IMG/VR virus record: IMGVR_UViG_3300043399_000633 | Span: 32,887 to 96,886 of that record | Origin: a virus | Direction: 5' to 3' (one strand) | DNA length: 64,000 nucleotides | In this document: positions 5,814-41,762 of the stretch, piece by piece | Position numbering within the stretch: position 1 is the stretch's first letter | Layout of the letters: each line of letters opens with the position of its first letter | Program-made: the position numbers and the translations under genes | Notes under the pieces: generated by a model | Database searches by the model: none | The model's input: the letters and a program-made list of their open reading frames with translations, nothing else | Told to the model about the DNA's origin: nothing

Positions 5814-6428
5814 ATGAATACTCAATACGCCGTGCAATTGCCCATTGTAATACAATGGATGAATGCATTACGAAAAATTCCTGCTGCTGATAGAGAAAGA
5901 GCACTAGAAGGATTTTGGGACACACAACTAACTAGTAAGTGTTGGATAATCAATACTATTCTAGAGCATAACTTAAACGCTAAGTGTGTTTATGTGTTTG
6001 GTGGCTGGACCGGCGTATTGAGTAGTTTACTTTTATCTAACGAAAATTTAAAAGTAGATAAAGCATATAGCATTGATATTGATCCGTGGTGCAGACCTAT
6101 AGCTAAAAATATGTGTGATAATAATATAAGATTTGCTGCTGTAACTGCTGACATGGGAACATATAAATACTCCACTAATCCTACATTAGTTATAAATACG
6201 AGTACTGAACATGTTAGTCAAGAAGTTTATGACCAGTGGTATGACAATATACCCGATTCTACTACAGTATTGATACAAGGTAACAATTTCTTTTCATGCC
6301 CCGAGCATGTTCGTTGTACAAACTCACTTGATGAATTTTTGAAAATAAATAAAGCATTCGATGTAGTGTATGCAGGCTCATTGGTTAATCCGCAGTACAC
6401 TAGATATATGTCAATATTTAAAAAGTAA
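5814..6428 (+). CDS. Class I SAM-dependent methyltransferase-like protein
   Basis: VFGGWTG, SIDID, INTSTEH. Confidence 0.7.
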   Translation: MNTQYAVQLPIVIQWMNALRKIPAADRERALEGFWDTQLTSKCWIINTILEHNLNAKCVYVFGGWTGVLSSLLLSNENLKVDKAYSIDIDPWCRPIAKNMCDNNIRFAAVTADMGTYKYSTNPTLVINTSTEHVSQEVYDQWYDNIPDSTTVLIQGNNFFSCPEHVRCTNSLDEFLKINKAFDVVYAGSLVNPQYTRYMSIFKK

Positions 6429-6430
6429 CT

Positions 6431-7279
6431 ATGACGGTGTGGAGTTTTTGTCCCGATCAAATTAAAGATACACTATCCAAAGTAATTCAAAAAAATAAAG
6501 GTGACTATGACGATTTAATCGCATATCGCAATAATTGGATTGATTGGATACATAACTTTAGTGGGTGTGAGAATAAAAAACAGTGGGCTGTATGCAATGG
6601 TATTCATGATGCGCTTATCAATCAAGTAAGCTATAAACATAAATCTGTTAACAAGTTTTATGCATTCATCACTGACTATAGATTTTATCACGCGATATTA
6701 CGACCCTATAATCATCAATTAATACTTCCACAACACATTAACAAAATTGAACCTAATAGTTATGTGTTGGTGAGTCAACCCAATCATGAGGGTAAAATTA
6801 CAGACTGGTTTCCACTACTAGTAGAACATTGCAAAAAGGTAAATACGTCTATATTTTTAGATTGCGCTTTTTATGGAACCACCTTTGACACACTCGACAC
6901 TAGTGATTATATTTTTGATTCAGTAGCATTTAGTCTCAGTAAGAATTTTTTACTAGGTGGATTGAGGGCAGGAATTGTGTTTAGTGATAGTCTAGCTGAA
7001 ACGCTTACGATACCTATTAGTACTCATTTTACTTATAACTATTTTAATAGTCAGGCTGTGCTTTCAGCAAATGCTATTTTACCTAAATATAAATCATCCT
7101 ATATTACTGAATTTGCTAAACCTAGACAATTACAATATTGCGCACAGAACAACTTAAAACCAGCAGACATCTGGATGTGGGCTTTTGATTGTAATGGTCG
7201 TAAAATATGTATTACTGAACATATCAAACAAGAAATTCAACTAGATTTAAACAATAGGTACCCGATCCTTATCGACTGA
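6431..7279 (+). CDS. PLP-dependent aminotransferase-like protein
   Basis: FLDCAF, FSLSK, GLRAG fold-type I pattern. Confidence 0.6.
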   Translation: MTVWSFCPDQIKDTLSKVIQKNKGDYDDLIAYRNNWIDWIHNFSGCENKKQWAVCNGIHDALINQVSYKHKSVNKFYAFITDYRFYHAILRPYNHQLILPQHINKIEPNSYVLVSQPNHEGKITDWFPLLVEHCKKVNTSIFLDCAFYGTTFDTLDTSDYIFDSVAFSLSKNFLLGGLRAGIVFSDSLAETLTIPISTHFTYNYFNSQAVLSANAILPKYKSSYITEFAKPRQLQYCAQNNLKPADIWMWAFDCNGRKICITEHIKQEIQLDLNNRYPILID

Positions 7280-7747
7280 TCCCATTAAATGTAGTCGATG
7301 TTCGTCAGAGCAATTCATAAAAGTGTGTTGTTTAGTAGTGTCAACATAATACACAAGACCTTTAGGTAAATGTTGTATGGTTCCGGCACGAAACACAAAA
7401 TAACATTCAGGATTGGTGATTATTGGTATGTGTATTCTAGGAGTAGAATCTCTATGCATACTATAACAAGACCACGGTGATACCATCATTAAACGAGTTC
7501 TTTTTAATTGAAATTTATCAATAAGGTTTTCAACGATAGTTCCGGTAAAAAATTCATTTAATATATTGAATTCTAAGTCAGATCCATAACCTTTGCCCAG
7601 CCCACTAGTGTTTTTATCGTCACCCAACTTGTATTGAATACTTACTTGTTTACCTTTACCGTAATCTACCCATATTAATTCATCTTTAACTGACTCATAA
7701 TATTTTAGTAACGTATCAACTTCTATTCTATCAATTATTTTGATCAT
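7247..7747 (-). CDS. Asp/Asn beta-hydroxylase-like 2OG-Fe(II) oxygenase
   Basis: HRD, RIHIPIITN, HTFMN, RLHL. Confidence 0.75.
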   Translation of the reverse strand: MIKIIDRIEVDTLLKYYESVKDELIWVDYGKGKQVSIQYKLGDDKNTSGLGKGYGSDLEFNILNEFFTGTIVENLIDKFQLKRTRLMMVSPWSCYSMHRDSTPRIHIPIITNPECYFVFRAGTIQHLPKGLVYYVDTTKQHTFMNCSDEHRLHLMGSVDKDRVPIV

Positions 7748-8369
7748 TTTTGTCTATCCTAAATCGTAAAGAAATACCTGTCTTTTCACCAGTGAAATTG
7801 GAGGTTGCATGTAATTTTCTACAATCAAATACTATGATGCTTCCGATTTCAAATGGGTATGCGTTTCCATTCAATCCAAACAATGTATGTTCTGGATATT
7901 GCGGCAAGTAACTACGTAGCTCTGGGTCTATCTGTTTGCCGGTTAATTTTTTTACTGGATACTCATAAGGGCATCCTTTTACTCCTATGTTTATTTCGAA
8001 ACTTTGAACACGATATTGCATACACCACGTTGTGCTATCAAGATGCCACTCTTGATCAAACACAATTAAATATGGCAAAGATTGTGTATACTCTAAAGGT
8101 ATAACAACATTTATTTCATTTTTTAAATGTGGTTTGTAGTCTGTATGAGGTAAGTAAGGAATCGAATGTTTGTAAAAATTTCCAGTGCAATAGGTAATGT
8201 TATAATCAAATAGACTCTGAACATAAGGAACTAACATTTTTAAACATTCGTTAGGTCCTGCTTTGTTCATTGTAACAGTGTCATATTTTTCTTTATTTTT
8301 ATACTCGATAAGGCATTGTTGTATGACATCATTTGGTATAAAATTATGTTTTTGAAAGCTGGGTATCAT
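7731..8369 (-). CDS. 2OG-Fe(II) oxygenase-like protein
   Basis: HTD...FD...LH pattern. Confidence 0.55.
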   Translation of the reverse strand: MIPSFQKHNFIPNDVIQQCLIEYKNKEKYDTVTMNKAGPNECLKMLVPYVQSLFDYNITYCTGNFYKHSIPYLPHTDYKPHLKNEINVVIPLEYTQSLPYLIVFDQEWHLDSTTWCMQYRVQSFEINIGVKGCPYEYPVKKLTGKQIDPELRSYLPQYPEHTLFGLNGNAYPFEIGSIIVFDCRKLHATSNFTGEKTGISLRFRIDKNDQNN

Positions 8370-8400
8370 AAATATTATTTATACACTAAACTTTACTCTA

Positions 8401-9417
8401 ATGAAATGTATCTGGATTGAAAATAGAATAAGTATCGAAACTGATGGGTACACAAGACCATGTTGTTTAGAAACCGATAATCTTGCACGTATCGACAAGA
8501 TAGATAATGGAATTCTGCATAGCTTCAACCACTCAAAATTATTATCGCTAAGAGAAAATTTAAAAGATGGTTATGGACCACTAACTAAACGTTATTGCCA
8601 TAGATGTGAAGATTTAGAAACAAAAGGACAACCTAGTCTAAGAACAATAAGCGGCAATGCAGAAGGTCCGAGAAAACTCAAATATATACAGTTTAAGTTA
8701 AGCAATCAATGTCAGTTGGCTTGTGTTCATTGTGCCAGTGGCCGTAGCAGCACATGGGCAAAACTTAATGGTGAATCGCCCCATGTTAAGAAGGCATTTC
8801 AAATTACCGATGCCTTCATTGATGAACTGAAAATGCTGTTACCTGATATCGAAACATTGAAATTTTCGGGTGGCGAACCTTTTCTTCAACCTGAACATTG
8901 GAAACTCTTAGAAGTATTAAAATCAGAGAATCGTAGTCATTGCAAGTTAGAGTACATAACTAACGGGATTAGTCCAATACGACCTGATCTTTGGGAAGGA
9001 TGGAAATCAATAGATTGTTCTATAAGTGCAGATGGATTTGAGGATACGTATGAATGGTTTAGACGAGGTAGTAGTTGGTCAGAGTTACTAAGTAATATTA
9101 AAATCATTGAGCAATACAGTAATGTGTCTATAAATTTTGCAGTCACACCCTACACTGTTAGCGACTATTTACAGTCTAAAGAATTTTGGTCTGATAAGTA
9201 TCACTTTAGTGAATTCCCTGTCGTCTATCCGGCATATTGCAGTATGCTCAAATTCCCAACAGAATATATACAACAGTTAGATAGGTATACTGAAATTCCA
9301 TTCACTAGTGGATGCAGTCCAACAGGTGATATAAATATTTTTCGAAATTGGGCTAACAAAATTGATACAATGTGGAATACTGTTGGAAAAGCAAAACAAT
9401 TATTTTGGTGGATGTAG
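8401..9417 (+). CDS. Radical SAM protein with N-terminal Twitch/SPASM-like domain
   Basis: CQLACVHC, SGGEP, N-terminal C...PCC. Confidence 0.85.
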   Translation: MKCIWIENRISIETDGYTRPCCLETDNLARIDKIDNGILHSFNHSKLLSLRENLKDGYGPLTKRYCHRCEDLETKGQPSLRTISGNAEGPRKLKYIQFKLSNQCQLACVHCASGRSSTWAKLNGESPHVKKAFQITDAFIDELKMLLPDIETLKFSGGEPFLQPEHWKLLEVLKSENRSHCKLEYITNGISPIRPDLWEGWKSIDCSISADGFEDTYEWFRRGSSWSELLSNIKIIEQYSNVSINFAVTPYTVSDYLQSKEFWSDKYHFSEFPVVYPAYCSMLKFPTEYIQQLDRYTEIPFTSGCSPTGDINIFRNWANKIDTMWNTVGKAKQLFWWM

Positions 9418-9424
9418 TAAAAAC

Positions 9425-10627
9425 ATGAATGAAACCTTTTGCATATTGCCCTGGTTACATCTCTATGTACACACCGATGGTAATGTTTTTCCTTGCTGTA
9501 CTAGTTGGGCAGGAAAAGATTCAGCAGTATTGGGTAGTATAAAATCAGAATCATTAGAACACATATTCAATACAGATAAAATAAAGCAGTTAAGGTTAGA
9601 TATGTTATCTAACAAACACCGCAATGATGTATGCTTTAAGTGCTATACTCAAGAAAAACATGGTTATAATAGTCCTAGAATCGCACATAATCAACGTTTT
9701 CAGCATCTAACGAAAAATTTAATTAGTAGTACAGCAACTAATGGAGAAGTTTCTCCTAACATAAAATCTATTGATATTAGACTTACCAATACATGCAACT
9801 TAAAATGCAGAAAGTGTAATCCACAATTGAGTTCAGCTATCGAGGCTGAGCAAAAAAATAAAACCATATTAATACAAGATGAAACATCTATCGAGATTTT
9901 AGAAGAACAATATCCTAACATAGAACACATATACTTTGCCGGCGGGGAACCTAGTCTAATGAAATATCAGTATGATATTTTAGTAAAATTAATAGATTTG
10001 GGCAGAGCCCACGAAGTATCTCTTGATTATAATATCAATGGAACAAACTTAAAATACAAATCTCTTGACCTATTGTCACTTTGGTCTAAATTTAAAAGAG
10101 TTAATGTACTAGTAAGTATTGATGGGATAGACGAACATGCAGAATACATTAGACATGGGTTCAAGTGGCAATTGATATTAAAAAATATTCATAAGTTAAT
10201 GGAATATCAAAAAACATCTAACAATTTTCATTTGGGATATTTTTGTACAGTTGATATACTAAATGTACACCATATCATTGATCTAACAGAGTACTTCAAA
10301 AATACTGGATTAATTACAGATGACATCAATATGTCATACCATATTTTGATGTTGCCTAGATATTACAACATAGATATATTACCGGCAAAAATTAAACTAG
10401 ATTTGGTTACCAAAATAAATACCTATGTTGATACTAACAAAACAACTAACAATTTAAGTTTTTTTGAAACACTAAAATTGCAGCTCATGAAAAATCATGA
10501 CAAAGATTTTAGTAATGAACTTAAAGAGTTCAAAAAAGTCACTATGAATTTAGACAGGATAAGAGGTGAGAATTTTTGCAATACGTTCCCGTATTATAAA
10601 GAGATGTGGGATAATATTACCATTTAA
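9425..10627 (+). CDS. Radical SAM protein with N-terminal Twitch/SPASM-like domain
   Basis: FCILPW, PCC, CNLKCRKC, AGGEP, SIDG. Confidence 0.9.
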   Translation: MNETFCILPWLHLYVHTDGNVFPCCTSWAGKDSAVLGSIKSESLEHIFNTDKIKQLRLDMLSNKHRNDVCFKCYTQEKHGYNSPRIAHNQRFQHLTKNLISSTATNGEVSPNIKSIDIRLTNTCNLKCRKCNPQLSSAIEAEQKNKTILIQDETSIEILEEQYPNIEHIYFAGGEPSLMKYQYDILVKLIDLGRAHEVSLDYNINGTNLKYKSLDLLSLWSKFKRVNVLVSIDGIDEHAEYIRHGFKWQLILKNIHKLMEYQKTSNNFHLGYFCTVDILNVHHIIDLTEYFKNTGLITDDINMSYHILMLPRYYNIDILPAKIKLDLVTKINTYVDTNKTTNNLSFFETLKLQLMKNHDKDFSNELKEFKKVTMNLDRIRGENFCNTFPYYKEMWDNITI

Positions 10628-24653: not shown

Positions 24654-24851
24654 TTGACAATAAATGGAGAATAGACTAGAATATGGAAAGTTGACAGTCA
24701 CACTTAAGTGTGAATGGCAAAAAGGTAAAAAGAAAAATTTGACAATAAATGGAGAACAGAATAGAATATGGATCGTTGACAGATACAAATTCGAATCTGT
24801 TCAAAAAGATAGAAAAAAACTCTTGACAAAAAATGGAGAAAAGATTAGAAT
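24654..24851 (+). promoter_or_regulatory. Three tandem sigma70-type promoters
   Basis: TTGACAA(T/A)AAATGGAGAA.AGA.TAGAAT at 24654, 24739, 24823. Confidence 0.7.
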
Positions 24852-25289: not shown

Positions 25290-25290
25290 A

Positions 25291-25430
25291 TCTAATATAT
25301 TCTAGCACTTAGAGAATGACTGCACGGGACTGTGGAGCAAAGCAGGAACCCGGCGGCAATAATTGGGTGGTAGCTTGAACCCTACTTCTTGATTCTCATT
25401 CTGGTTCACTGAGTGCTAGAATATATTAGA
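25291..25430 (+). repeat. Long-stem hairpin family member
   Basis: 21-bp stem enclosing about 98 nt. Confidence 0.7.
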
Positions 25431-25435
25431 TACAA

Positions 25436-25518: not shown

Positions 25519-25595
25519 GGGCCATTAGTTCAGTTGGTAGAACGCCTGCCTTGCAAGTAGGATGTCGTGGGTTCGATTCCCACATGTGTCCACCA
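25519..25595 (+). tRNA. tRNA-Ala(TGC), bulged acceptor
   Basis: Cloverleaf, G3.U70, CCA. Confidence 0.85.
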
Positions 25596-25604
25596 AAAAC
25601 AAAC

Positions 25605-25645
25605 TGGGATTATTGTCAGTCAGGTCAGACGGCTCAGTTCGAAGT
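25605..25645 (+). pseudogene. Truncated tRNA 5' half upstream of HNH gene
   Basis: D arm GTC-AGTCAGGTCA-GAC; no T arm or 3' acceptor strand. Confidence 0.5.
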
Positions 25646-25694
25646 AACCGTTCAACATTCTTCGTTTGTGATAAATACATCAAGGAGAATAAGT

Positions 25695-26159
25695 ATGTTA
25701 CTTCAATCATCTAAAATCAAGTGCAGGCACTGTGAGAAATTAATTTTTCCGCATAGTGTCACCAGGCACGATGCGGTGTGTCATCTTCACCCGGACAATA
25801 TAAGACTATGTAAGATATGTAACGAGCCAATTTTTAATTGGCGAGAATCAAAGGGAACATGTTCACATGCATGTGCTAATAAGCTGTTCAGAACAGGTGA
25901 AAATCATGGGAATTGGAAACCAGAACGGTATCAAACTACTTGTTTTGAACACCATGAAAGAAAATGTGTAGTATGTGGGGAAGATAAAGTAGTTGCGGTC
26001 CATCATCTAGACCATAGCAAGAAAAATAATCACCCTTCAAACCTGATTCCAATGTGCCCGACGCATCACCAATATTGGCATAGTAAGTATAGAACATTAA
26101 TTGAGGATAAGGTTCTATCTTACATAGAATCTTGGAAGAAAAAGAATAACTCTCTATAG
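25695..26159 (+). CDS. HNH endonuclease with zinc fingers
   Basis: CVVC...VHHLD...N...NLIPMCPTHH; AGGAG RBS; stop inside tRNA-Pro. Confidence 0.85.
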   Translation: MLLQSSKIKCRHCEKLIFPHSVTRHDAVCHLHPDNIRLCKICNEPIFNWRESKGTCSHACANKLFRTGENHGNWKPERYQTTCFEHHERKCVVCGEDKVVAVHHLDHSKKNNHPSNLIPMCPTHHQYWHSKYRTLIEDKVLSYIESWKKKNNSL

Positions 26160-26404: not shown

Positions 26405-26481
26405 TGGGGTGACATACGACGGGAAGTATACTGGGCTTTGAACTCAGGTCTTAGTCGGTTCGAATCCGACCACCCTTGCCA
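26405..26481 (+). tRNA. tRNA-Gln(TTG), atypical D arm
   Basis: Cloverleaf, CCA. Confidence 0.8.
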
Positions 26482-26518
26482 AATTTTTTGTCAGCATAGT
26501 TTGTCACTAAATAGTGAT

Positions 26519-27343
26519 ATGAATATTTCCTATGCTGATAATGGATGGACTGTGTTCATCAACGATGATCTAACCACATTGTCTAACGACGAAATAAAGC
26601 AAGTTGCTAAATTCGTTGTTACAAATATGGTTGTTGTGTTCAAAAAACAAAACCTTACTCCAGAACAGGAATTAAAATTCTGTAGAGTGATAGGCAATCA
26701 CCAGTACTACCCTGCTTCGTATGAACGAGGAAAGCATATCAGATTGAATGACGGTATACTTAGGGTGACTGGTAAAAAAAATGAATATGGCGAACCTGGA
26801 CTTTTTGGCCATACTTCTGCACTTGATTGGCATGCCAATCAACCTAGTAACAAAGAACGTAAGCCATTGATTTGGTTGTACGGTGCAGAAGGGACTAAGG
26901 GTTCAAGAACAAGCTGGCTCAACAATATTGCTAGCTATCAGGATTTGCCCACTGATCTCAAAAATGAAATTGATAGTCTACAAGTTTTTTGTGGATACGC
27001 AAAAGGCAAGTATTCTAATAGTTCTTATTTTGTAGAACATGTCAATGAGTCTAATCCCATTGATCTTGTTCAAACAAACAAAGAAGGTAAGAAGGGATTG
27101 TTTTTTCCATTCTTACAAATATTCGGCTTTAAAGATAAAGACGAACAGTATTTCAACAAAATAATGCAACAATTGATCGATCATGTCGTTCAAGAAAAGT
27201 ACATGTATCATCATGATTGGGATGACGGAGATGTTGTCATTTCAGAACAAATATTAAGCATCCACAAACGTTGGGCTTTTGATGATATGGAAAATCGTGT
27301 GTTGCATAGAATTGCGTTTGACTATTCAAACGTATACAAATAA
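26519..27343 (+). CDS. TauD/TfdA-family dioxygenase
   Basis: VVVFK.Q.L, WHAN, W..GDVVI...HKR, R.L.R. Confidence 0.85.
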   Translation: MNISYADNGWTVFINDDLTTLSNDEIKQVAKFVVTNMVVVFKKQNLTPEQELKFCRVIGNHQYYPASYERGKHIRLNDGILRVTGKKNEYGEPGLFGHTSALDWHANQPSNKERKPLIWLYGAEGTKGSRTSWLNNIASYQDLPTDLKNEIDSLQVFCGYAKGKYSNSSYFVEHVNESNPIDLVQTNKEGKKGLFFPFLQIFGFKDKDEQYFNKIMQQLIDHVVQEKYMYHHDWDDGDVVISEQILSIHKRWAFDDMENRVLHRIAFDYSNVYK

Positions 27344-27754: not shown

Positions 27755-27939
27755 TGTGTTCTTAAGGCTGATGACGGCAATCGTCAGAAGGCTTTAATCC
27801 AACCCCGAGCAGAGTAGCTTTGCCGAGCGAAGTGTTAGGGAGTCTCTATCATTTAGCGGATAGGATACCGGCTCATCGAGCGGGTCACGGTGGGTTCGAA
27901 TCCCCCTAGAGTTTATTGGACGTCAGCCTTAAGAACATA
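27755..27939 (+). ncRNA. Unknown structured RNA enclosed by 19-bp stem
   Basis: TGTGTTCTTAAGGCTGATG/CGTCAGCCTTAAGAACATA; internal GGTTCGAATCC T-loop. Confidence 0.55.
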
Positions 27940-28254: not shown

Positions 28255-28433
28255 AACATTAAGACTTTAAATAATCATACTTAAAGTCTGACTAATGGTT
28301 GACAATAATTCGTGCAGGTGCTACAATACATGCATGAGTTGAGAAATCAACTAGTTCTTTATACAATTTAACGGTTTCAAGGTATTACGTTAAAGAGACA
28401 CTGGGTTTTCACTAGTGTTCGTTGACGTAACGT

Positions 28434-28538
28434 GATACCATATTTCAACGCATTAGTGGAGGTTTGCTCAGTAATAGCAACCTTTAAATGAGATGGCTCT
28501 GATCTTATCACGCCAATAGTGTGTTGAAATATGGTATC
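28434..28538 (+). repeat. Long-stem hairpin family member
   Basis: GATACCATATTTCAACGCATTA/TAGTGTGTTGAAATATGGTATC. Confidence 0.75.
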
Positions 28539-28539
28539 G

Positions 28540-29102: not shown

Positions 29103-29179
29103 ACCATAGTTCAGCACATTTTGAAGAAACCCGAGGTCTTCTACGACGGGACGGGGCTCTTAGTGTGCTGAACTATGGT
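29103..29179 (+). repeat. Long-stem hairpin family member
   Basis: ACCATAGTTCAGCACATT/AGTGTGCTGAACTATGGT. Confidence 0.75.
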
Positions 29180-29434: not shown

Positions 29435-30139
29435 ATGAATTACAAGAACATTTACCATACTCTGATTACTAGAGGCAAAGAAAGAAAGATTGAATCTGAA
29501 TATAAGGAAATACACCATATTATTCCTCGTTGTTTGGGTGGATCAGATGAGATAGAGAATCTGGTCGAACTAACTCCAGAAGAACATTATGTTGCCCATC
29601 AACTCTTGATAAAAATCTATCCAGATAATCATTCTTTAATTTACGCAGCAAGGATGATGATTGTCAATCGTCCATCAAATAAATTGTATGGCTGGCTTAG
29701 AAGAAAATACGCCGAAGCGGTGTCAATAAATCAAACTGCCGAAGGGAATTCTCAACACGGAACTAAATGGATAACAAATTTACAGGGCGAACAAAAGAAA
29801 ATAGAAAAAAGTTTGGTAATTCCCGAAGGATGGGTTGCAGGTAGAAAAAAATTGAGCACTTGTAAATATTGTAACGCATCGTATCTAAAAATTACTAATA
29901 CAATATTTTGTTCAGTGATTTGTAAATCATCTTATACTCAGGAAATATTGAGTACTCGGATGAGTAGTAATAACCCAATGAAGGACCCATCTGTTGCTAA
30001 AAAGCAAGCAGATAAGGTAAGAGGTAAGAAAAAGAGCCCACACAAGAGAAAACGAACAGAGGATCACAATCAAAAATTATCGGTTGCGTCGAAGTTGGTC
30101 TGGGAAAAAAGAAAACAATCTAAAGTGGCGGTAGACTAA
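29435..30139 (+). CDS. HNH homing endonuclease
   Basis: EIHHIIPRCLGG.D...NLV.LT.EEHY.AH.LL; upstream 12-bp inverted repeat around ATAAATA. Confidence 0.9.
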   Translation: MNYKNIYHTLITRGKERKIESEYKEIHHIIPRCLGGSDEIENLVELTPEEHYVAHQLLIKIYPDNHSLIYAARMMIVNRPSNKLYGWLRRKYAEAVSINQTAEGNSQHGTKWITNLQGEQKKIEKSLVIPEGWVAGRKKLSTCKYCNASYLKITNTIFCSVICKSSYTQEILSTRMSSNNPMKDPSVAKKQADKVRGKKKSPHKRKRTEDHNQKLSVASKLVWEKRKQSKVAVD

Positions 30140-30191
30140 TTGGATAAGTCGCGGCGAAATGGTGGTTTCGAAGTCCACCCCACAATGGGTT

Positions 30192-31515
30192 ATTATATTT
30201 CAGCGCATTAGCACTGGCTGCTACCACAGTCAGACGTATTGGTAGATATGCTGGGCAACAACGCCGCCCGGGTAGTGTGCTGAAATATGGTAAGCCTTAA
30301 TCCAACTGAGGAACAAAAGATCGTCAGAGTCGCGTCTGGTAAAGATCAAGTAGTTCCAATTAGGTGACTCAAGGCTGGTTCCCGGCGGGGAGCCATATTG
30401 AAGCACATTTCTTGGCTAGTAGCGGAAAGAATACTTAATCGGGTCAACGAGCCTTTACTCCTCCCGAAGAACGGTATCGTAAAGATATAAGGACCGTCTA
30501 TGTATTGTGAAGTGTGTTTCAATATGGTATGAGAGCCTCTTCAACGACCAGAGTGTCTATTATTGTTGTGGAGATAAAATAGTAGACCGATCTAGATTGG
30601 GCAGTGTCCACTACTCATAATTTGCTCATACCATTTACCATATTAAAACACATTAGCCTACCTCCACCGAGAGGTAGTTAAAGATAATGACAAGCAACAG
30701 CCAGTGTGTTTCATCGAGACATGGTCTTACTCAAGGATCGCGGTGTTGGGAAGAACGGGAATACATAACCGTCTGTAAGCAATCCTGCACATTGAGAGGG
30801 GGTGGAATTCCCCCACCATATTAAAACACATTAGCCTACCCAAGGGCTTGTAGACAGTGGTTGGAAGGATCTACACAAGTGCTATCGCAAGAGGCAGGAA
30901 CCATCCAGGTGGTGCTGGACCCTGCGGGGGCTTCGAAATCCTCAGATAAGCCGTAGTGTGTTTTAATATGATAAGGATACATATGTTGTATGATATTTGA
31001 TGGAACACCATGCTTTCTCATGTCATATAGCAAAAGTGGCAGGTTTGTAGCGTACCTGTTGTATAAAAACGCTATGATCATATTGAAACACATTGATCCT
31101 AACGATTGTTTAGGAAGACTGGCGATTGTTCAGCAGTGTGTTTCAATATGGTAAATGCGTAGGCTGATACGCAACTTTGAGTTCGGTGCGGCAAGCCACA
31201 CAGGTAAAGCTGGTGGCATGGCTCTTCAAAAATCCAGCATGCGGGAGATCAGCACCCGCTACCATAGTTCAACACATTTCTAATGTACAAACAACTACCC
31301 GGGTTAAGTTGGGAAGTGTGTTGAACTATGGTGAATAGGGCCTCGCTCACTAAGGTCCGTTAAGAGCGAGCAATGCCAGCAGGACGGATCTGAGATAGCG
31401 AAGGAAAGTGGGCAGAGGCTGGCTTCCATAGTTCAACACATTCTACCCTACCTCGGCTGGAACGGCTGTGCGAGGATAGGCGAACAGACCCGTTTGAGTG
31501 TGTTGAACTATGGAA
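30192..31515 (+). repeat. Array of 7 long-stem hairpins alternating with 89-108 nt structured spacers
   Basis: Starts at 30192, 30393, 30637, 30815, 31077, 31261, 31424; arms ACCATA(T/G)T.AA.CACATT and AGTGTG.TT.AA(T/C)ATGGT. Confidence 0.8.
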
Positions 31516-31601
31516 CTTGACACAAATTAGTAAGAGTGCTATACTGTGTATCTGTTGTTGAGTGATCAGCACAAATTCTTTAAAAACTTAATTACAATAC
31601 T

Positions 31602-31715
31602 TCTTAGTATTGTTGAGCATACTAGGCTATATCGGTATACTTAATTGGAACCGTACTCCTATGTTAGCATGACGGCTAGGCATCATGTGCTATAGTGTGT
31701 TCAACAATGTTAAGA
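31602..31715 (+). repeat. Long-stem hairpin family member
   Basis: About 23-bp stem; right arm nearly identical to that at 40285. Confidence 0.7.
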
Positions 31716-31720
31716 TTTTT

Positions 31721-31809
31721 GGGTGTTGCTCCCTGTTGCCGGCTGTAACCCGGTAGGCGTTGTTAAGCAGGGCGGTTGCCAAATGGTTCGACTCCTTCAA
31801 CACCCACCA
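31721..31809 (+). tRNA. tRNA-Tyr(GTA)-like, rewired/pseudoknotted D domain
   Basis: 8-bp acceptor, CTGTAAC loop, T loop, ACCA; no D hairpin. Confidence 0.65.
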
Positions 31810-31819
31810 AAAATTTAAT

Positions 31820-31939
31820 GGGGCCTTAGTGTAATGGTAGCATGTTTAAAGACGGTTATCCTGATAGGATACGGACAGCAAACTTTCTCAATTCCACGAT
31901 AAGGAAAAGGTCCAGGTTCGAATCCTGGGGGCTCCACCA
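31820..31939 (+). ncRNA. CCA-ended tRNA body with permuted ACAGCAA stem replacing the anticodon arm
   Basis: GGGGCCT/GGGCTCC acceptor, D and T arms, TATCCT-GAT-AGGATA-CGGACAGCAA. Confidence 0.65.
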
Positions 31940-32217: not shown

Positions 32218-32252
32218 GTTGGAACTTTTGTTCGCAAATGATAAATAAGTAT

Positions 32253-32966
32253 ATGAATTACATAAAACATTATAATATACTTATTAATCGGGCAAAAATC
32301 AGATCATTGACAGAAGATTACGAAACGCACCATATTGTGCCCAAATGTTTGGGTGGAACTGATGATTTTGATAATCTTGTTAGATTGACTCCTGAGGAGC
32401 ATTATACTGCTCATCTATTGTTGGTAAAAATCTATAATAGCCCACCATTAGTATACGCCGCACAAATGATGGCGGTGAGTAGTAAACATCACCGAAGGAA
32501 TAACAAAATGTATGGCTGGCTAAAACGCCGGTACATTGAAATATGCCGCCAACGGATAGGAAATAAAAACGGTAGCTTTGGTAGACATTGGTATACCAAT
32601 CCTTCAACATTAGAAAGCGGTAAATTTGAGGATAGTAAAGTACCTGCAGGGTGGATAAAGGGCCGCAGAATTAAAAAAGAATTAAAACCTAGAAAAACTA
32701 CTACATGCGGATCATGTGGTAAGAATACAAATTCTCACAAGGCCAAATTGTGTAGTGATTGTAAACCGCTTAGTTCGGTGAGACAAGAAAAACAAAAAAT
32801 GTTTTTTTCAGATGAAGAAAAAATAAATGCTTTAAAACTTTTTGACGGAAAAATACGCCCTGCTCTGTTTCATTTAGGATTAAATGACAGTGGGGTACAT
32901 TACAGATGCATGAAAAAATTAAAAGCGTCTTTATACCCTCTGGCTACGAACCAGTTGAAAGGTTAA
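32253..32966 (+). CDS. HNH homing endonuclease
   Basis: ETHHIVPKCLGG.D...NLVRLTPEEHY.AH; paralog of 29435 gene. Confidence 0.9.
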   Translation: MNYIKHYNILINRAKIRSLTEDYETHHIVPKCLGGTDDFDNLVRLTPEEHYTAHLLLVKIYNSPPLVYAAQMMAVSSKHHRRNNKMYGWLKRRYIEICRQRIGNKNGSFGRHWYTNPSTLESGKFEDSKVPAGWIKGRRIKKELKPRKTTTCGSCGKNTNSHKAKLCSDCKPLSSVRQEKQKMFFSDEEKINALKLFDGKIRPALFHLGLNDSGVHYRCMKKLKASLYPLATNQLKG

Positions 32967-33976: not shown

Positions 33977-34052
33977 GCGGGTATAGCTCAGTCGGTAGAG
34001 CAGTAGACTTTTAATCTATTGGTCGTGGGTTCGAATCCCCCTGCCCGTACCA
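33977..34052 (+). tRNA. tRNA-Lys(TTT)
   Basis: Cloverleaf, CCA. Confidence 0.9.
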
Positions 34053-34154
34053 TATAAAAGCACATTAGTTACGTTGGGCCGAAAGCTGGAAAGGACAAGT
34101 AACCGCCAGGTTAAAACGGGAGACCCAAAGTGTGATAGTGTGCTTCTATATGGT
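34049..34154 (+). repeat. Long-stem hairpin family member overlapping both flanking tRNA ends
   Basis: ACCATATAAAAGCACATTA/TAGTGTGCTTCTATATGGT. Confidence 0.75.
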
Positions 34155-34226
34155 GATGTAGCATTAAGGTAATGTACCACCCTCATAAGGTGTCCTAAGG
34201 CGGTTCGATTCCGCCCATCACTACCA
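34152..34226 (+). tRNA. tRNA-Met/Ile2(CAT)
   Basis: Cloverleaf, CCA. Confidence 0.85.
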
Positions 34227-35146: not shown

Positions 35147-35707
35147 ATGGCTGTTCTAGCACTAGATATTTCAGGCACTCCGCGGCAATGGATTTCGTAT
35201 GATGACGCAATTTCATACCATGCTACAAAGAGTGTAGCGTGGAGCATGGGTGATATTGTTGCAAAATACCGCGGCGGTATCCAAAATGACGGTACAGAAA
35301 GCTATATCGAAACTCCAAGTATTATTGCAATTAAGGGACATGGGTTCAATCCTCACAAGCATTCGAGGGTTGCTCTAAGTAACCGTACACTGTTCGGTCG
35401 TGACCGATATGTGTGTGCGTACTGCGGTGGACATTTCCCGAACTTCAATAATCTTAGTCGTGATCACATTGTTCCTAAGTTTCATGGCGGAGAAAACACG
35501 TGGATGAACGTAGTTACCGCTTGCAAGGAATGTAATAGCAAGAAGGGTCACAAGACATTGAAGGAAGCTCGTATGGAATTGTTGTACGTGCCGTACGAAC
35601 CCAATCACTATGAAAACATGATTCTGCAAAATCGCACGATCCTTGCAGATCAAATGGAATACTTGCTTGCAGGTGTTCCAAAACATAGTAGGATCCTATT
35701 GTCATAG
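35147..35707 (+). CDS. HNH endonuclease (McrA-like)
   Basis: RD...CAYCG...DHIVP...GG...W.N.VTAC..CN..K; AAGGAG RBS. Confidence 0.9.
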   Translation: MAVLALDISGTPRQWISYDDAISYHATKSVAWSMGDIVAKYRGGIQNDGTESYIETPSIIAIKGHGFNPHKHSRVALSNRTLFGRDRYVCAYCGGHFPNFNNLSRDHIVPKFHGGENTWMNVVTACKECNSKKGHKTLKEARMELLYVPYEPNHYENMILQNRTILADQMEYLLAGVPKHSRILLS

Positions 35708-37969: not shown

Positions 37970-38046
37970 GCCCCGATGACGGAATCGGTATACGTGTTGG
38001 ATTCAAAATCCAAATTTTGAGGGTTCGAATCCCTCTTGGGGCACCA
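37970..38046 (+). tRNA. tRNA-Leu(CAA), short variable loop
   Basis: Cloverleaf, CCA. Confidence 0.85.
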
Positions 38047-38133
38047 TATTATAGTACATACTGTTTCGCTGGTGGATACCCAGAGATAGTCAGATCCAGA
38101 CTGAAGAACGGTTTAAGTGTACTATAATATGGT
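38043..38133 (+). repeat. Long-stem hairpin family member
   Basis: ACCATATTATAGTACAT/GTGTACTATAATATGGT. Confidence 0.7.
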
Positions 38134-38149
38134 TAAAGATAAATAACTG

Positions 38150-38776
38150 ATGCGCTATAAAGAATTTTTAATTGAAAGAGTACTGAATCTTCATACACCT
38201 GAAGAAAAGATGCCATACGCAGAAATTGTATGGGATATGCTTCAGCGTAGTTATAAAAAGATAGGTGGCTTCAAAAGTGTTGCTAACATGGAAGAGTTGG
38301 TCAATGAGCCAGGTTATTGGAAGTTGGTCAAACGTGATGGAAAAATTACATCCGTTAACATCTATAAAAAATCACCGAAAACTAAAAATTTCAAAGTTAT
38401 TGCTAGTGCAACAGAAACCGACTACGATCCGGAAAAAGACAAGTATAAAGCAACACCTAAAGGTCTTAGTGACTACGAGATGATTAAAAAAAGTGATATT
38501 AAAATGAAGCGTAGTTGGGCAGAGGTAAGTGGTCCCGCAGAAATCTTGATGAAAAGAAGCGGTGCAACTCCTATACCAAACGAGTATGCAGAGTTATTGA
38601 CTGGTAAAAATATACTAGATTTCAATGATGATGGATATCATTACACTAGGTTAATTCACGGCGAACCTCATGAAAAAGTAATATATGGCTTTGTCAAATT
38701 AAGTGACGAAGGACGAGAAGAATTAGAATCTAGGGGTATCAATATCAAAAAACTTCCTAAAAACATAGAAATTTGA
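38150..38776 (+). CDS. Hypothetical phage protein
   Basis: 208-aa ORF after ATAAATA. Confidence 0.75.
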   Translation: MRYKEFLIERVLNLHTPEEKMPYAEIVWDMLQRSYKKIGGFKSVANMEELVNEPGYWKLVKRDGKITSVNIYKKSPKTKNFKVIASATETDYDPEKDKYKATPKGLSDYEMIKKSDIKMKRSWAEVSGPAEILMKRSGATPIPNEYAELLTGKNILDFNDDGYHYTRLIHGEPHEKVIYGFVKLSDEGREELESRGINIKKLPKNIEI

Positions 38777-38832
38777 CGATAAATCCAAACTGTGATATAG
38801 TGTCATTAAGTTATGAAAAGATTGGGGGTTTT

Positions 38833-39414
38833 ATGATTGTTTATCTACATGGATTTGCAAGTTCAGGTTCTAGTCCAAAGGTCGGTGCATTGCGCGCCCG
38901 GTTTGGTACTGACTCTGTAGTAGCGCCTGATCTACCCTTTGATCCAGCATTAGTTAGGCAATTAGGTTTTGATTTGGTCAACCGGTATGTTAAAACACGA
39001 GCAGCAAATGAAAAATTAATCTTCGTTGGAACTAGTCTAGGTGCATTCTATGCAAGTTATTTTGGTCACGTATATGACTGTCCAATTGTTATTGTAAATC
39101 CTAGTGGTAAGCCTAGCGAAACATTAAAGGCAAAACTAGGCACTAATGTAAATTACGTGACTGGTGATGAGTTTATGGTTTCTTTAGCGCACTTGGATGA
39201 GTTGGCAAATATGCGTAAGTATGTTGCTGAGAATTATTCAGGTTCGTTGGTAAGTTTGTTTGTAGCACGTGATGACGAGGTTATCCCCTTCGAATCTATG
39301 ATCGAAAGTTTTCCGTATACCAGCAAGATGGTTATAATGGATGACGGTGGTCACCGATTCACAAAACACTGGGATCTAGTTGTTGATCGTGTGGCAGAAA
39401 TAATGAACTATTGA
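38833..39414 (+). CDS. YqiA/UPF0227-like alpha/beta esterase
   Basis: YLHGFASS, GTSLG, DEVI, GGH.F. Confidence 0.85.
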   Translation: MIVYLHGFASSGSSPKVGALRARFGTDSVVAPDLPFDPALVRQLGFDLVNRYVKTRAANEKLIFVGTSLGAFYASYFGHVYDCPIVIVNPSGKPSETLKAKLGTNVNYVTGDEFMVSLAHLDELANMRKYVAENYSGSLVSLFVARDDEVIPFESMIESFPYTSKMVIMDDGGHRFTKHWDLVVDRVAEIMNY

Positions 39415-39419
39415 TAGGC

Positions 39420-40007
39420 ATGGATCAGTCTGCAAGAATAAAAAAATATTTATCACAAATACCCAAAAATTTAAATTGGGTAGATGTAGCTTGCGGAAAT
39501 GGGTGCCTATCAAAAATTTTAGTAGATCACGCTGATGCAAATGTTTTGGCTATCGACGCCAGAGATTATTTTCAGTTTAAAACTTATGCTAGGATAAACT
39601 TCATAACAAAAAATATAGAAGATGCCGATTTCTTCGACATAATTAAAACATACGATGCTATTCTATATTTAGGGCATTTTTATCATACTATCAAAAATGA
39701 AGAAATCGTAAAAATCTTTAGCGAGTCAACAGCAAAATATCTATTATTAGAAAGTAAGGTGCATAATTTTAACTCTGCTACCTCCAAAAAAGAAACTGTA
39801 AATTTTTACGTAGAGTCAACCTCTAACAACTATCAGCCTTACTCTGACTCTAATAAAGAGTTATCTATATGTCAACCCAATTTACCATGGACTTTATCTA
39901 TATTAAATAAATATGGTTGGACTATAAATGATTATGATTGTGTAATAGCAAAGTCATCTATAGATGGAAAAATTTTCCAAAGTTACTTGATATTTGCTCA
40001 AAGATGA
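39420..40007 (+). CDS. Class I SAM-dependent methyltransferase
   Basis: DVACGNG, AIDAR, LGHFYH. Confidence 0.75.
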   Translation: MDQSARIKKYLSQIPKNLNWVDVACGNGCLSKILVDHADANVLAIDARDYFQFKTYARINFITKNIEDADFFDIIKTYDAILYLGHFYHTIKNEEIVKIFSESTAKYLLLESKVHNFNSATSKKETVNFYVESTSNNYQPYSDSNKELSICQPNLPWTLSILNKYGWTINDYDCVIAKSSIDGKIFQSYLIFAQR

Positions 40008-40310: not shown

Positions 40311-41201
40311 CAAGGGCAGCTTAATGTCCTACACGGTATGGTTCGCCCAGCTGTGTGAAGAATAAGTCAGGTGACTGACCCAAAGGAGGTAAGCCTACAT
40401 AACTCCGCTAGTAATAGTTCATTTAAGCAAGCCTGCTCACACCCGCGAGGGTGCGTTCACTGAGAAGACCGGTGGATGTAACAATGAAGCAAGTGTGTTG
40501 GAAAGAATGTCTGTTTAAGTCCCCGCAAGGGTAAGACAGGCAGACAGAGAGTAACAGGTGGTGCTGACCTCAACACAAAACCAACTTGCGAATTGGTATG
40601 AGAAAGGGTAGTATTATGATCCGAAGGGTCGCACCTAAGGGTTGTAGTGCAGTATGAGTGGTTAGTGGGCATGTAGTAATACATGTACACCGATCGCAAA
40701 ATACGACTGAGTAGTCCGCGAGACAAAAGGTACGTGGTGTGTTGTATTGAGTAGAGCAAAACTTTATTCAGCAACTGAGGCAGCACATCATAGTAGGTCA
40801 AATGTAGATCAATGGTAGATCGTCTGTATGATGAACAGAATGCTGTCGGTTCAAGTCCGATCATTTTAACAAAAACGCAAAGACTGCCTCGGTTGTATGT
40901 GAAAAACATCTAATACTTGACTCTTCGGAGAATCAAGTCTGACGTAACTCGCAAGGTGAAATCAGTTTATGCAGGATATTTCGTAGCCCGCAAGGCTTAA
41001 TGGACCGCAAGTTCAACGGAATGGAAAGCGTAGAATAGCATACAATGTCAAGTCTACTGCCTGACTCTAAACGGCGATGTTGGTAACAGACTAGGTTACT
41101 GTGTAATAACAGGGCTTAGTGGATATCTAGAGAAGGTTGGCTCGCAAGGCTAACTATAATGCTAGAGGTGTTACTCGGTAAGGATGTAATCTCAGTCCTC
41201 C
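40311..41201 (+). ncRNA. GOLLD-like giant ncRNA with embedded tRNA-like domain (40797..40870)
   Basis: About 890 nt without a plus-strand ORF, many GNRA hairpins (CGCAAG/CGCGAG), embedded cloverleaf, phage tRNA-cluster context; recognised by eye. Confidence 0.7.
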
Positions 41202-41243
41202 ACTATTCTAAAGCGCATTAATATTAGTGTGTTTCAGAATAGT
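41202..41243 (+). repeat. Empty long-stem hairpin family member (3' flank of giant ncRNA)
   Basis: ACTATTCTAAAGCGCATTA/TAGTGTGTTTCAGAATAGT, 4-nt loop. Confidence 0.7.
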
Positions 41244-41262
41244 AGCATAAATAAAATTTATT

Positions 41263-41339
41263 GCCCCGGTGACGGAATTGGTATACGTGTTGGTCTTAGA
41301 AGCCAAATTTTAGGAGTTCGACTCTCCTCTGGGGCACCA
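41263..41339 (+). tRNA. tRNA-Leu(TAG), short variable loop
   Basis: Cloverleaf, CCA. Confidence 0.85.
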
Positions 41340-41354
41340 ATTAAGTTAGCAATT

Positions 41355-41762
41355 ATGATAAAAATAAATAGCGATAGGTCTTGTGGTGAATGTACTATGT
41401 GCTGTCAAGGTCACTTGACAGGATCTGCACATGGATTTGAATTCGGTCCTAACAAACCATGTCATTGGATAAGAGACAGTGGCTGCGGGATCTATCCTTA
41501 CAGACCTGATACACCTTGCAAATCGTTTAAATGTGAATGGAAAGTCAATAAAGAAATTCCTGAAGAATTTAGACCTGACAAATGTAAGGCTATTTTTGTC
41601 AAAAGGCCTATATCTGAAACAGAATACAGATTAGATGTAGTAGAATCAGGCGGCACACTAAGCGCCGATATATTGCATTTAATTATGATTTTATTTCAAA
41701 GTCATAAATACGATCATGTTCAATATCAGCGAAATGGTGCTTGGTATGAATTAAAAAGATAA
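41355..41762 (+). CDS. YkgJ-like cysteine-cluster protein
   Basis: CGECTMCC, C.IY..RP..C..F.C. Confidence 0.75.
   Translation: MIKINSDRSCGECTMCCQGHLTGSAHGFEFGPNKPCHWIRDSGCGIYPYRPDTPCKSFKCEWKVNKEIPEEFRPDKCKAIFVKRPISETEYRLDVVESGGTLSADILHLIMILFQSHKYDHVQYQRNGAWYELKR

What the first reader, a model, noticed from the sequence alone, without database searches (positions are those of the whole stretch)
30192..31515. Periodic array of conserved long hairpins releasing about 13 unrelated small RNAs
Seen: seven consecutive 17-20 bp stems with consensus arms ACCATA(T/G)T.AA.CACATT and AGTGTG.TT.AA(T/C)ATGGT. Interiors are 33-120 nt, spacers 89-108 nt; both are largely unique and self-structured, and there is no credible ORF. 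Arms covary within each copy and keep a CATT/AGTG U.G wobble that works only as plus-strand RNA. Most spacers start GGT and end CCA. Inference: a polycistronic small-RNA cassette cut at the stems by an RNase III-like or phage nuclease, CRISPR-like in layout but built from inverted arms.
Basis: partly seen in the sequence, partly recalled or inferred. Interest (0 to 1): 0.85.

Follow-up and report, generated by a model that had tools for sequence, protein, structure and literature searches.

The report
Shared-stem hairpin RNAs in phage tRNA island
A large uncultured freshwater phage strings small folded RNAs between its tRNA genes, each closed by the same long stem, in the manner of the function-unknown "stable RNAs" of coliphages T5 and BF23; the family is widespread and is not in Rfam.

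Summary
The seven hairpins are real. An eighth lies at 31602-31715, and nine more are scattered through a 17-kb island of 41 tRNA genes. All are on the tRNA strand.

The stem (N-CCATATTNNAACACATT-N with its complement, about 19 bp) covaries and keeps a U.G wobble. Its base pairs the 3' CCA of the upstream tRNA or tRNA-ended RNA with the first G's of the next RNA.

The same stem occurs in 76 IMG/VR contigs and in at least 120 metagenome contigs, always in tRNA arrays. I found no true copy in 185,579 bacterial and archaeal genomes, in cultured phages or in Rfam 15. It encloses more than 130 unrelated but conserved, structured cargos.

The closest known things are the GenBank-annotated "stable RNAs with unknown functions" of phage BF23/T5. 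RNA III there has the same CCA-to-tRNA stem design. Its annotated ends lie inside the stem with a 2-nt 3' overhang, which is the RNase III signature. The CRISPR comparison fails.

What the released RNAs do is unknown. This scan had already noted the family on other DNA.

The parts
30190..30293 (+). H1 hairpin (arms 30193-30209 / 30274-30290). The cargo folds as three hairpins, a cloverleaf-like topology.
   Evidence: CM 38.8 bits on + vs 17.5 on -
30289..30395 (+). S1 module: starts GG, closed by its own stem, ends with a hairpin followed by CCA
   Evidence: 96% identical copy in L043 and L068
30392..30528 (+). H2 hairpin, 20-bp stem, 101-nt cargo
   Evidence: cargo 100% identical in L043 and L068; missed by the CM because of the long cargo
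30526..30640 (+). S2 module: 8-bp closing stem, tail ending ACCA
30637..30725 (+). H3 hairpin, irregular (insertion in the right arm)
   Evidence: CM 20.3 bits
30724..30818 (+). S3 module, ends with a 5-bp hairpin followed by ACCA
   Evidence: also in L043 and L030, where it is followed by a different hairpin
30815..30972 (+). H4 hairpin, 17-bp stem, 122-nt cargo
   Evidence: RNA-library contigs cover 30816-30970 in two runs
30970..31080 (+). S4 module
31076..31152 (+). H5 hairpin. The cargo has two stem-loops with the same 7-nt loop.
   Evidence: CM 61.2 bits, E 6.5e-13; the same cargo occurs in L030, L043 and L068
31150..31264 (+). S5 module: GGUA...UACCA closing stem
31260..31333 (+). H6 hairpin, 22-bp stem
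   Evidence: 54.4 bits
31330..31428 (+). S6 module
31424..31515 (+). H7 hairpin. The cargo family is shared with L014 and L041, with compensatory changes inside the cargo.
31517..31545 (+). sigma-70-like promoter (TTGACA-17-TATACT with TG) between H7 and H8
   Evidence: 11 of 12 matches
31602..31715 (+). H8 hairpin, the eighth unit of the array: 23-bp stem with 4 G.U pairs and a diverged arm sequence
   Evidence: CM 21.2 bits on + only
28299..28327 (+). sigma-70-like promoter, the nearest near-consensus one upstream of Hd, tRNA-Tyr, tRNA-Met, He, the HNH gene and the array
   Evidence: 11 of 12; no terminator-like site on + between it and 31156
28433..28539 (+). Hd hairpin; its stem ends immediately before tRNA-Tyr (28540)
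   Evidence: 48.8 bits; in L068 the same flanks hold another cargo and a different inner stem
29103..29179 (+). He hairpin, upstream of the HNH gene
   Evidence: cargo swapped in L068 between the same flanks
34048..34155 (+). Hf hairpin. The left arm starts with the CCA of tRNA-Lys (ends 34052); the right arm ends in G1 and G2 of tRNA-Met (starts 34152).
   Evidence: 48.4 bits
36859..37068 (+). Hg, a diverged member with a 25-bp stem and 172-nt cargo; starts at the CCA of tRNA-Leu (ends 36863)
38043..38133 (+). Hh hairpin; starts at the CCA of tRNA-Leu (ends 38046); followed by the ORF at 38150
   Evidence: 40.1 bits
40223..40308 (+). Hi hairpin, 24-bp stem, upstream of GOLLD
   Evidence: 30.7 bits
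41202..41243 (+). Hj, a stem with almost no cargo, directly after GOLLD RNA
   Evidence: 30.5 bits
25126..25212 (+). Ha, a diverged long-stem member (24 bp) just before tRNA-Gln
   Evidence: CM only E 0.3
25290..25431 (+). Hb, a diverged long-stem member (23 bp) between tRNA-Gln and tRNA-Ile

Best explanation
The array is part of a long plus-strand transcript of the phage's tRNA island. Each left arm pairs with the next right arm into a helix of about 19 bp that closes a small structured 'cargo' RNA.

The helix base is built from the ACCA 3' end of the upstream RNA (a tRNA or a tRNA-ended 'spacer' RNA) and the UGGU that holds the first bases of the downstream RNA.

Inferred step: a double-strand-specific endonuclease, most likely the host's RNase III, makes a staggered cut a few base pairs above the base. 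This would release the cargo on an 11-15-bp stem as a discrete stable hairpin RNA. It would leave about 3 nt after the upstream CCA for 3' exonucleases and about 2 nt before the downstream G1 for RNase P. One stem would thus mature three RNAs at once.

Shown here: the structure, its strand, its covariation, its registration with tRNA ends, its spread, and the conservation of the cargos.

Inferred: cleavage, the enzyme and the exact cut site, all by analogy with BF23/T5 RNA III.

Unknown: what the 7-8 hairpin RNAs and 6-7 spacer RNAs do. Some cargos in relatives carry T arms, so tRNA mimicry is one possibility.

The shared arms also serve as homology for recombination that reshuffles modules between related phages.

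The confidence of 0.55 is for the whole chain. Taken separately, I put the RNA-level modular reading at about 0.9 and RNase III-type cleavage at about 0.55.
For: Structure and strand:
- 21 long stems on + against 0.27 expected by chance.
- Covariation: 96.1% of cells paired, 10 of 19 pairs changed on both sides, 0 of 500 shuffles as good.
- 163 of 217 hairpins pair better on the tRNA strand and 8 pair worse.
- CM scores are always higher on +.
- In an independent metagenome set, 76 of 82 hairpins lie on the tRNA strand, 0 lie opposite, and 6 are on short contigs without a tRNA call.

Registration with tRNA ends:
- In 74 of 217 hairpins the left-arm CCA is exactly the CCA of an ARAGORN tRNA.
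- In 24 the next tRNA starts at the penultimate G of the right arm; in the metagenome set, the left-arm CCA is a tRNA's CCA in 44 of 82.
- Upstream modules that are not tRNAs also end in NCCA, often after a terminal hairpin.

Transcription:
- 12 near-consensus sigma-70 promoters, all on +.
- Modules are present in RNA-library contigs of 4 studies.

Cargos are selected:
- 136 clusters of cargo.
- Compensatory changes inside cargos, including the family of H7.

Precedent:
- BF23 RNA I (GG...GCCA, 107 nt), RNA III, RNA IV and RNA 2H are annotated as stable RNAs.
- RNA III lies in a 20/20-bp stem that pairs the CCA of RNA I with the 5' end of tRNA-His.
- The annotated ends of RNA III, RNA 2H and RNA IV fall inside longer helices with 2-, 2- and 1-nt 3' overhangs.
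- RNase III is reported to take part in T4 tRNA maturation (PMC4810235, citing McClain 1979).

Module shuffling with junctions inside the arms.
Against: - No end-mapped RNA data exist for this phage. The RNA-library evidence is assembled contigs, which cannot show ends and may include DNA.
- The host, and hence its RNase III, is unknown.
- The stem sequence is conserved far beyond what RNase III needs (5 invariant pairs and a fixed U.G across about 40 DNA-unrelated lineages). This hints at an additional specific partner.
- The alternative register (a right arm pairing with the following left arm, enclosing the spacer) is almost as good: 15.8 against 16.7 of 17 pairs.
- The T5 and BF23 RNAs are not sequence-level members (CM best E 0.5).
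- I could not see how the BF23 ends were determined. I rely on the GenBank annotation alone.
Confidence: 0.55

Rival explanations
1. The stems are only processing or insulating spacers that help mature and separate neighbouring tRNAs. The enclosed cargos are by-products without a function of their own.
For: Hj has almost no cargo (41202-41243). The stems are registered to tRNA ends. RNase III stems in T7 early RNA and in rRNA operons work this way (established knowledge).
Against: Cargo families are conserved between DNA-unrelated contigs and show compensatory changes. Only 1 of 217 hairpins has a cargo under 10 nt. The analogous T5/BF23 hairpins accumulate as stable RNAs (annotation).
Confidence: 0.15
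2. The conserved stem is a docking handle for a specific protein, as the Y RNA stem is for Ro60. The hairpins would act as ribonucleoprotein particles that display varied cargos.
For: Five invariant base pairs, an almost fixed U.G wobble and a recurrent A.C mismatch across about 40 lineages. Distribution is phage-only. The same phage has another handle-plus-cargo RNA family beside a Ro60-like DUF2828 protein (earlier notes e1-6064126 and e1-6064127).
Against: No candidate protein was found. Two island ORFs tested are not shared by the large contigs that carry the stem. No dsRBD is present. The Ro60-like protein is linked to a different handle. Diverged members keep the pairing but not the sequence (Ha, Hb, Hg, H8; the L068 variant of Hd).
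Confidence: 0.12
3. The primary role is at the DNA level: the inverted arms are recombination or mobility sites (integron attC-like cassettes, MITE or REP elements, or homing-endonuclease targets) that move RNA cassettes.
For: Modules are reshuffled between 96-100% identical relatives, with junctions in the arms. HNH endonuclease genes flank the array.
Against: Mismatches are strand-asymmetric: G.U predominates on the tRNA strand. There is a single orientation in every locus. Copies are confined to a few kb in genomes of 177-335 kb. No empty sites or target duplications appear among 336 flank comparisons. Junction depth within the arms varies, which fits homologous rather than site-specific exchange. 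No integrase is present.
Confidence: 0.05
4. The array is a conformational switch. Each left arm can pair with either the preceding or the following right arm, and the choice controls which RNAs are exposed for processing.
For: The alternative register is nearly as good (15.8 against 16.7 of 17 pairs; better in 9 of 58 neighbouring pairs).
Against: Many hairpins stand alone between two tRNAs, where no alternative exists. Variable positions favour own-arm pairing in 29 cases against 9. 5'-to-3' folding favours the own arm (inference).
Confidence: 0.05

Closest known systems
Coliphage BF23/T5 'stable RNAs with unknown functions': RNA III, with RNA IV, RNA 2H and the CCA-ended RNA I (GenBank AJ604530 annotation)
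   Same: Both lie in a phage tRNA gene cluster on the tRNA strand. RNA III is a long-stem hairpin of about 106 nt whose genomic stem (20/20 bp) pairs the CCA of the preceding RNA with the 5' end of the next tRNA. RNA I (107 nt, GG...GCCA) matches the window's 'spacer' modules. The order RNA I then RNA III then tRNA mirrors the S-H-S-H array. The outer stem is similar in sequence (CCAnA(A)UUGAAA / UUUCAAUnUGG). HNH endonuclease genes lie nearby.
   Different: T5 and BF23 have single copies, not arrays of 8. The inner stem sequence differs and the covariance model does not score T5 (E 0.5). The window's stem is one near-identical handle on more than 130 cargos across hundreds of uncultured phage contigs. 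None of this appeared in the papers I could search.
RNase III processing stems (T7 early mRNA sites; stems flanking 16S and 23S rRNA; RNase III in T4 tRNA maturation)
   Same: Long double-stranded stems in a polycistronic precursor that separate functional RNAs. The staggered 2-nt 3' overhang is seen in the annotated BF23 analogues.
   Different: Those stems enclose either nothing or the main product and have no shared sequence-conserved handle with swappable cargos. Cleavage here is not demonstrated.
tRNA-punctuated release of small RNAs (murine gammaherpesvirus 68 tRNA-miRNA TMERs; E. coli 3'ETS-leuZ and tRNA spacer sponges; mitochondrial tRNA punctuation; synthetic tRNA-gRNA arrays). From my own knowledge.
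   Same: A hairpin or small RNA directly abuts a tRNA, so that tRNA end-processing defines its ends.
   Different: The hosts and enzymes are different, and none has a conserved closing stem that pairs the CCA with the next tRNA's 5' end.
CRISPR arrays
   Same: Periodic alternation of conserved and unique segments, transcribed as one precursor.
   Different: The arms are inverted, not direct repeats. The unique parts are structured and conserved between phages, not target-derived. I did not search for cas genes. The Rfam CRISPR-DR match is at chance level (E 6.6).
Y RNAs / YrlA with Ro60
   Same: A conserved stem handle plus a variable, sometimes tRNA-like, module. The phage encodes a Ro60-like protein.
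   Different: No Rfam Y RNA or YrlA match. Earlier notes link the Ro60-like protein to a different handle (ACAGCAA). Here the conserved stem takes the place of the acceptor stem, not of the anticodon stem.

Membership tests
T5/BF23-type stable hairpin RNA (RNA III type) | Lies inside a phage tRNA gene cluster, on the tRNA strand | tested here: met
   41 tRNAs on +; all 17 hairpins on + within 25.1-41.3 kb
T5/BF23-type stable hairpin RNA (RNA III type) | Long stem whose base pairs the CCA of the upstream RNA with the first bases of the next tRNA | tested here: met
   Hf, Hg, Hh and 74 of 217 copies in relatives; BF23 RNA III shows the same
T5/BF23-type stable hairpin RNA (RNA III type) | Accumulates as a discrete stable RNA with ends inside the stem | not testable with these tools
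   Only assembled RNA-library contigs were available; they carry no end information
T5/BF23-type stable hairpin RNA (RNA III type) | Sequence homology to RNA III | tested here: inconclusive
   The CM built on the window family gives E 0.5 at best on T5. The outer stem shares about 11-12 nt.
RNase III substrate | About two turns of uninterrupted double-stranded RNA | tested here: met
   17-25-bp stems; consensus 19 bp
RNase III substrate | Staggered cleavage leaving 2-nt 3' overhangs | not testable with these tools
   Inferred only from the annotated ends of the BF23 analogues
RNase III substrate | The enzyme is available (phage-encoded) | tested here: not met
   No PF14622 match in this fragment or in 5 large contigs, and no dsrm match in this fragment. 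A host enzyme would be needed, and the host is unknown.
CRISPR array | Direct repeats separated by similar-sized unique spacers | tested here: not met
   The arms are inverted and alternate left/right. CRISPR-DR2 match E 6.6.
Integron cassette array (attC) | Integron integrase next to the array; attC core sites | tested here: not met
   No PF00589 match. The arm ends CCATAT/ATATGG do not fit RYYYAAC/GTTRRRY (read from the sequence).
MITE / REP-like mobile DNA | Both orientations, dispersed copies, target-site duplications, empty sites | tested here: not met
   Single orientation; confined to tRNA islands; no empty sites in 336 flank comparisons
Any Rfam 15 family | A match at or near the gathering score | tested here: not met
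   Nothing in 30192-31515 at E up to 10 except chance mir-653 and CRISPR-DR hits. Only tRNA, GOLLD, tmRNA and group I introns were found in 14 related loci.
tRNA | Cloverleaf with D, anticodon and T arms and a free acceptor end | tested here: not met
   No tRNA hit in the array. Some cargos in relatives carry T arms, and one carries D and T arms, but they are closed by the long stem.

The most novel reading that the evidence does not exclude
The stem is a universal 'socket' of a phage RNA toolkit. It would let any small structured RNA be matured and stabilised from a tRNA operon by ordinary host enzymes, and be swapped between phages by recombination at the arms. The more than 130 cargos, some of them tRNA-mimicking, would be a large unexplored repertoire of phage effector RNAs, for example decoys or inhibitors of host tRNA-targeting defences or of translation factors.
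Probability: 0.25. Interest if true: 0.85.

Novelty: new variant of a known kind. Interest (0 to 1): 0.7.

Why it matters
Phage tRNA arrays are now seen as counter-defence and translation-takeover modules. The non-tRNA RNAs embedded in them have been ignored since the T5 and T4 "stable RNAs" of the 1970s and 1980s.

This family gives those orphans a common architecture. One conserved stem is registered to the CCA and G1 ends of its neighbours. The family has a large natural sample: hundreds of contigs and more than 130 cargos, some with covariation. It also yields a testable maturation rule.

T5 and BF23 carry the same design, so the mechanism can be tested in a cultured laboratory phage and host. 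If the cargos are effectors, this is a sizeable new class of phage small RNAs. The stem may also serve as a natural, enzyme-free-standing cassette for expressing small RNAs from tRNA operons.

Tried and rejected
- blastn of the whole array and of one hairpin against 50,697 cultured-phage records gave no true match.
- Rfam at gathering and at E up to 10 gave nothing for the array.
- My first pattern was mistyped by one base and found nothing relevant. It was corrected.
- The same pattern in 185,579 bacterial and archaeal genomes gave 2 chance hits, with no complementary arms and no tRNAs. The stem is therefore not a host tRNA-operon element.
- Complementarity of cargos and spacers to the phage's own 97 kb was only at chance level, 10-16-nt matches. 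There is no sign of antisense targets in cis.
- I searched for phage RNase III, dsRBD, tyrosine integrase, RNA ligase and RtcB. RNase III was searched in this fragment and in 5 large contigs, RNA ligase and RtcB in this fragment and 4 large contigs, and dsRBD and integrase in this fragment only. None was found. Circularisation by a phage ligase and an integron-like mechanism therefore get no support.
- The island ORFs 38150-38776 and 41229-41762 were tested as candidate partners. They are not shared by the large contigs that carry the stem.
- Anticodon-loop mimicry in cargos: there were 8 'U2/R6' 7-nt loops against 1.2 expected, but most are T-loop sequences, not anticodon loops.
- Laying reads gave only assembled contigs from four metatranscriptomes, so there is no information on ends, strand or level. 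Parts without cover mean nothing.
- The CM missed H2 and H4 because of their long cargos. They rest on the stem scan.
- Literature searches found no description of the family.

Full report
**Setting.** The window is bases 32887-96886 of a 96.9-kb IMG/VR viral contig that CheckV rates 27% complete, so it is a fragment of a very large phage. Positions 25.1-42.5 kb hold 41 tRNA genes, all on the + strand. A GOLLD RNA wraps tRNA-Ile. There are four small HNH endonuclease genes and 12 near-consensus sigma-70 promoters, all on +. The finding lies in the largest tRNA-free gap of this island.

- The island has 21 uninterrupted stems of at least 17 bp on +, 9 on -, and 0.27 on average in shuffles.
- The arms fit N-CCATATTNNAACACATT-N and its partner.
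- The differences between partner arms are almost all G.U on the + strand.
- An eighth unit, with a diverged arm sequence but 23 pairs, lies at 31602-31715, behind a promoter at 31517-31545.
- Nine further members lie elsewhere in the island. A covariance model built from 60 foreign copies finds 12 window members at E<0.01. All are between 28.4 and 41.3 kb, and each scores higher on + than on -.
- The 'spacers' fold as closed modules that start GG and end NCCA, often after a terminal hairpin.

**Registration with tRNA ends.** Where a tRNA lies upstream, the first three bases of the left arm are its CCA. This is so for tRNA-Lys with Hf, tRNA-Leu with Hg and tRNA-Leu with Hh. Hf's right arm ends in G1 and G2 of tRNA-Met.

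Across related loci, 74 of 217 hairpins have this exact offset to an ARAGORN tRNA, and 24 have the exact downstream offset. The discriminator base also pairs, so the helix base is ACCA:UGGU. Hairpins with no tRNA upstream still begin with CCA and follow a stem-plus-N-CCA end.

**Spread.**
- One exact pattern (22 fixed bases) hits 76 IMG/VR contigs.
- It gives only two chance hits in 596 Gb of bacterial and archaeal genomes and none in cultured phages.
- 75 of the 76 IMG/VR loci are one-directional tRNA arrays; one has no tRNA call.
- In the metagenome set, 76 of 82 hairpins are on the tRNA strand, 0 are opposite and 6 are on short contigs without a tRNA call.
- The 76 loci fall into about 40 groups with no alignable DNA in common.
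- In contigs of 177-335 kb the copies sit within a few kb.
- Arrays of alternating hairpin and 65-140-nt module recur in many loci.

**Covariation and cargos.** On 60 hairpins with unrelated cargos, 96.1% of cells pair, 10 of 19 pairs change on both sides, no shuffle matches this, and slid registers pair at 30-50%. Five pairs never vary, and the U.G wobble at position 16 is nearly fixed.

The 217 hairpins carry 136 unrelated cargo clusters. Within clusters, cargos are conserved between unrelated contigs and show compensatory changes; this includes the family of the window's H7. About 15% of clusters have a T arm placed just before the right arm. One has both a D arm and a T arm, so there the conserved stem stands where an acceptor stem would be.

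**Evolutionary dynamics.** Relatives that are 96-100% identical in single modules (L043, L068, L030) carry them in another order. Cargos and spacers move independently and the junctions lie in the arms. RNA-library contigs from other lakes join S1 to H4 and S2 to H5.

Between identical flanks, one phage has one cargo and its relative has another, sometimes together with the inner half of the stem. Among 336 flank comparisons there is no empty site. This looks like homologous exchange at the shared arms, not site-specific insertion. No integrase is present.

**The precedent.** GenBank AJ604530 (BF23 tRNA region) annotates RNA I, RNA III, RNA IV and RNA 2H as 'stable RNA with unknown functions'.
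- RNA I is 107 nt, starts GG and ends GCCA on a closing stem, like the window's spacer modules.
- RNA III follows it and abuts tRNA-His. Its genomic stem is 20/20 bp and pairs the CCA of RNA I with the 5' end of tRNA-His. This is the same design, and the outer stem is similar in sequence.
- The annotated RNA III starts 4 nt after that CCA and ends with a 2-nt 3' overhang on a 12-bp stem.
- RNA 2H and RNA IV also end inside longer helices, with 2- and 1-nt overhangs.

That is the geometry of RNase III cuts. RNase III is reported to act in T4 tRNA maturation (PMC4810235). The covariance model does not score T5, so I treat this as the same kind of element and not as a family member.

**Mechanism proposed.**
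- Transcription from host-type promoters (inferred).
- Co-transcriptional closure of each cargo by its arms (structure shown).
- A staggered double-strand cut about 6-7 bp above the base by host RNase III (inferred by analogy). No phage RNase III was found in this fragment or in five large contigs, one of them 95% complete.
- Trimming of about 3 nt after the upstream CCA, and RNase P removal of about 2 nt before the downstream G1 (inferred from established tRNA processing).
- Products: 7-8 hairpin RNAs and 6-7 CCA-ended RNAs from this array.

Their function is unknown. I found no phage ligase to support circularisation, no antisense targets in the phage fragment and no co-occurring protein.

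**Verdict.** The feature is real, strand-specific and selected, and it is widespread in uncultured freshwater phages. It is absent from Rfam and from the literature I could search. Its closest relatives are the obscure T5/BF23 stable RNAs, so I rate it a new variant of a known kind.

This scan had already noted the same stem family on other DNA (e1-5980227, e1-5739795 and others).

Noticed in passing
window 40734-41198: GOLLD RNA (Rfam 226 bits) with tRNA-Ile (40798-40870) inside it. Hairpin Hi lies upstream and hairpin Hj starts 4 nt after its end. A GOLLD copy is also in relative L043.
   Followed up: partly
window 27755-27939: A second class of long stem (19 bp, TGTGTTCTTAAGGCTGATG with its complement, about 147 nt between the arms). 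It recurs with compensatory changes in L014, L043, L068 and L071.
   Followed up: no
window 24654-24851, 27685, 28299, 31517, 34983, 35727, 36568, 36662, 39987, 40142: Twelve sigma-70-type promoters matching 11-12 of 12 consensus positions, all on the + strand, with three in tandem at the head of the island. The phage seems to rely on host RNA polymerase for this region.
   Followed up: no
window 31820-31936 and 31720-31806: A 117-nt stretch scores as tRNA (40.7 bits) with a long insert. Next to it is a weak tRNA-Sec-like hit (23.6 bits). Earlier notes read these as a tRNA-shaped RNA with a Ro-type handle and a pseudoknotted tRNA-Tyr.
   Followed up: no
window 29435-30139 and 32238-32966 (also 25551-26159, 35147-35707): Four small HNH endonuclease genes lie inside the tRNA island. 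The two that flank the array share a 119-nt repeat at 73% identity. This parallels the HNH genes in the T5/BF23 tRNA region.
   Followed up: partly
window 26438-27343, 38773-39414, 39411-40007: A TauD-family dioxygenase, a UPF0227 alpha/beta hydrolase and a SAM methyltransferase are encoded among the tRNAs. They may be RNA-modifying enzymes.
   Followed up: no
L054:1183-1301 (oriented coordinates) and other loci listed: Some cargos in relatives are tRNA bodies (D arm and T arm, or T arm alone) whose acceptor stem is replaced by the conserved long stem. Rfam scores one of them as tRNA at 40 bits.
   Followed up: partly
several cargo families, e.g. L007:1391-1464, L040:2767-2851, L036:10422-10494, L055:7989-8063: Otherwise unrelated cargos end with the same purine-rich run AAAGAGAG just before the right arm. 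It may be a shared single-stranded motif.
   Followed up: no
L083 (BF23, AJ604530) 3020-3380, 4056-4227, 5371-5473: The annotated ends of BF23 stable RNAs III, 2H and IV fall inside longer genomic helices with 1-2-nt 3' overhangs. This suggests RNase III makes them. I found no paper that says so.
   Followed up: partly
genome G000:C1 about 2300-10100 (upstream of the window): A long stretch of GGT/AGT-rich tandem repeats, which produces many spurious 'stems' in the hairpin scan. It is probably a repetitive structural-protein gene.
   Followed up: no
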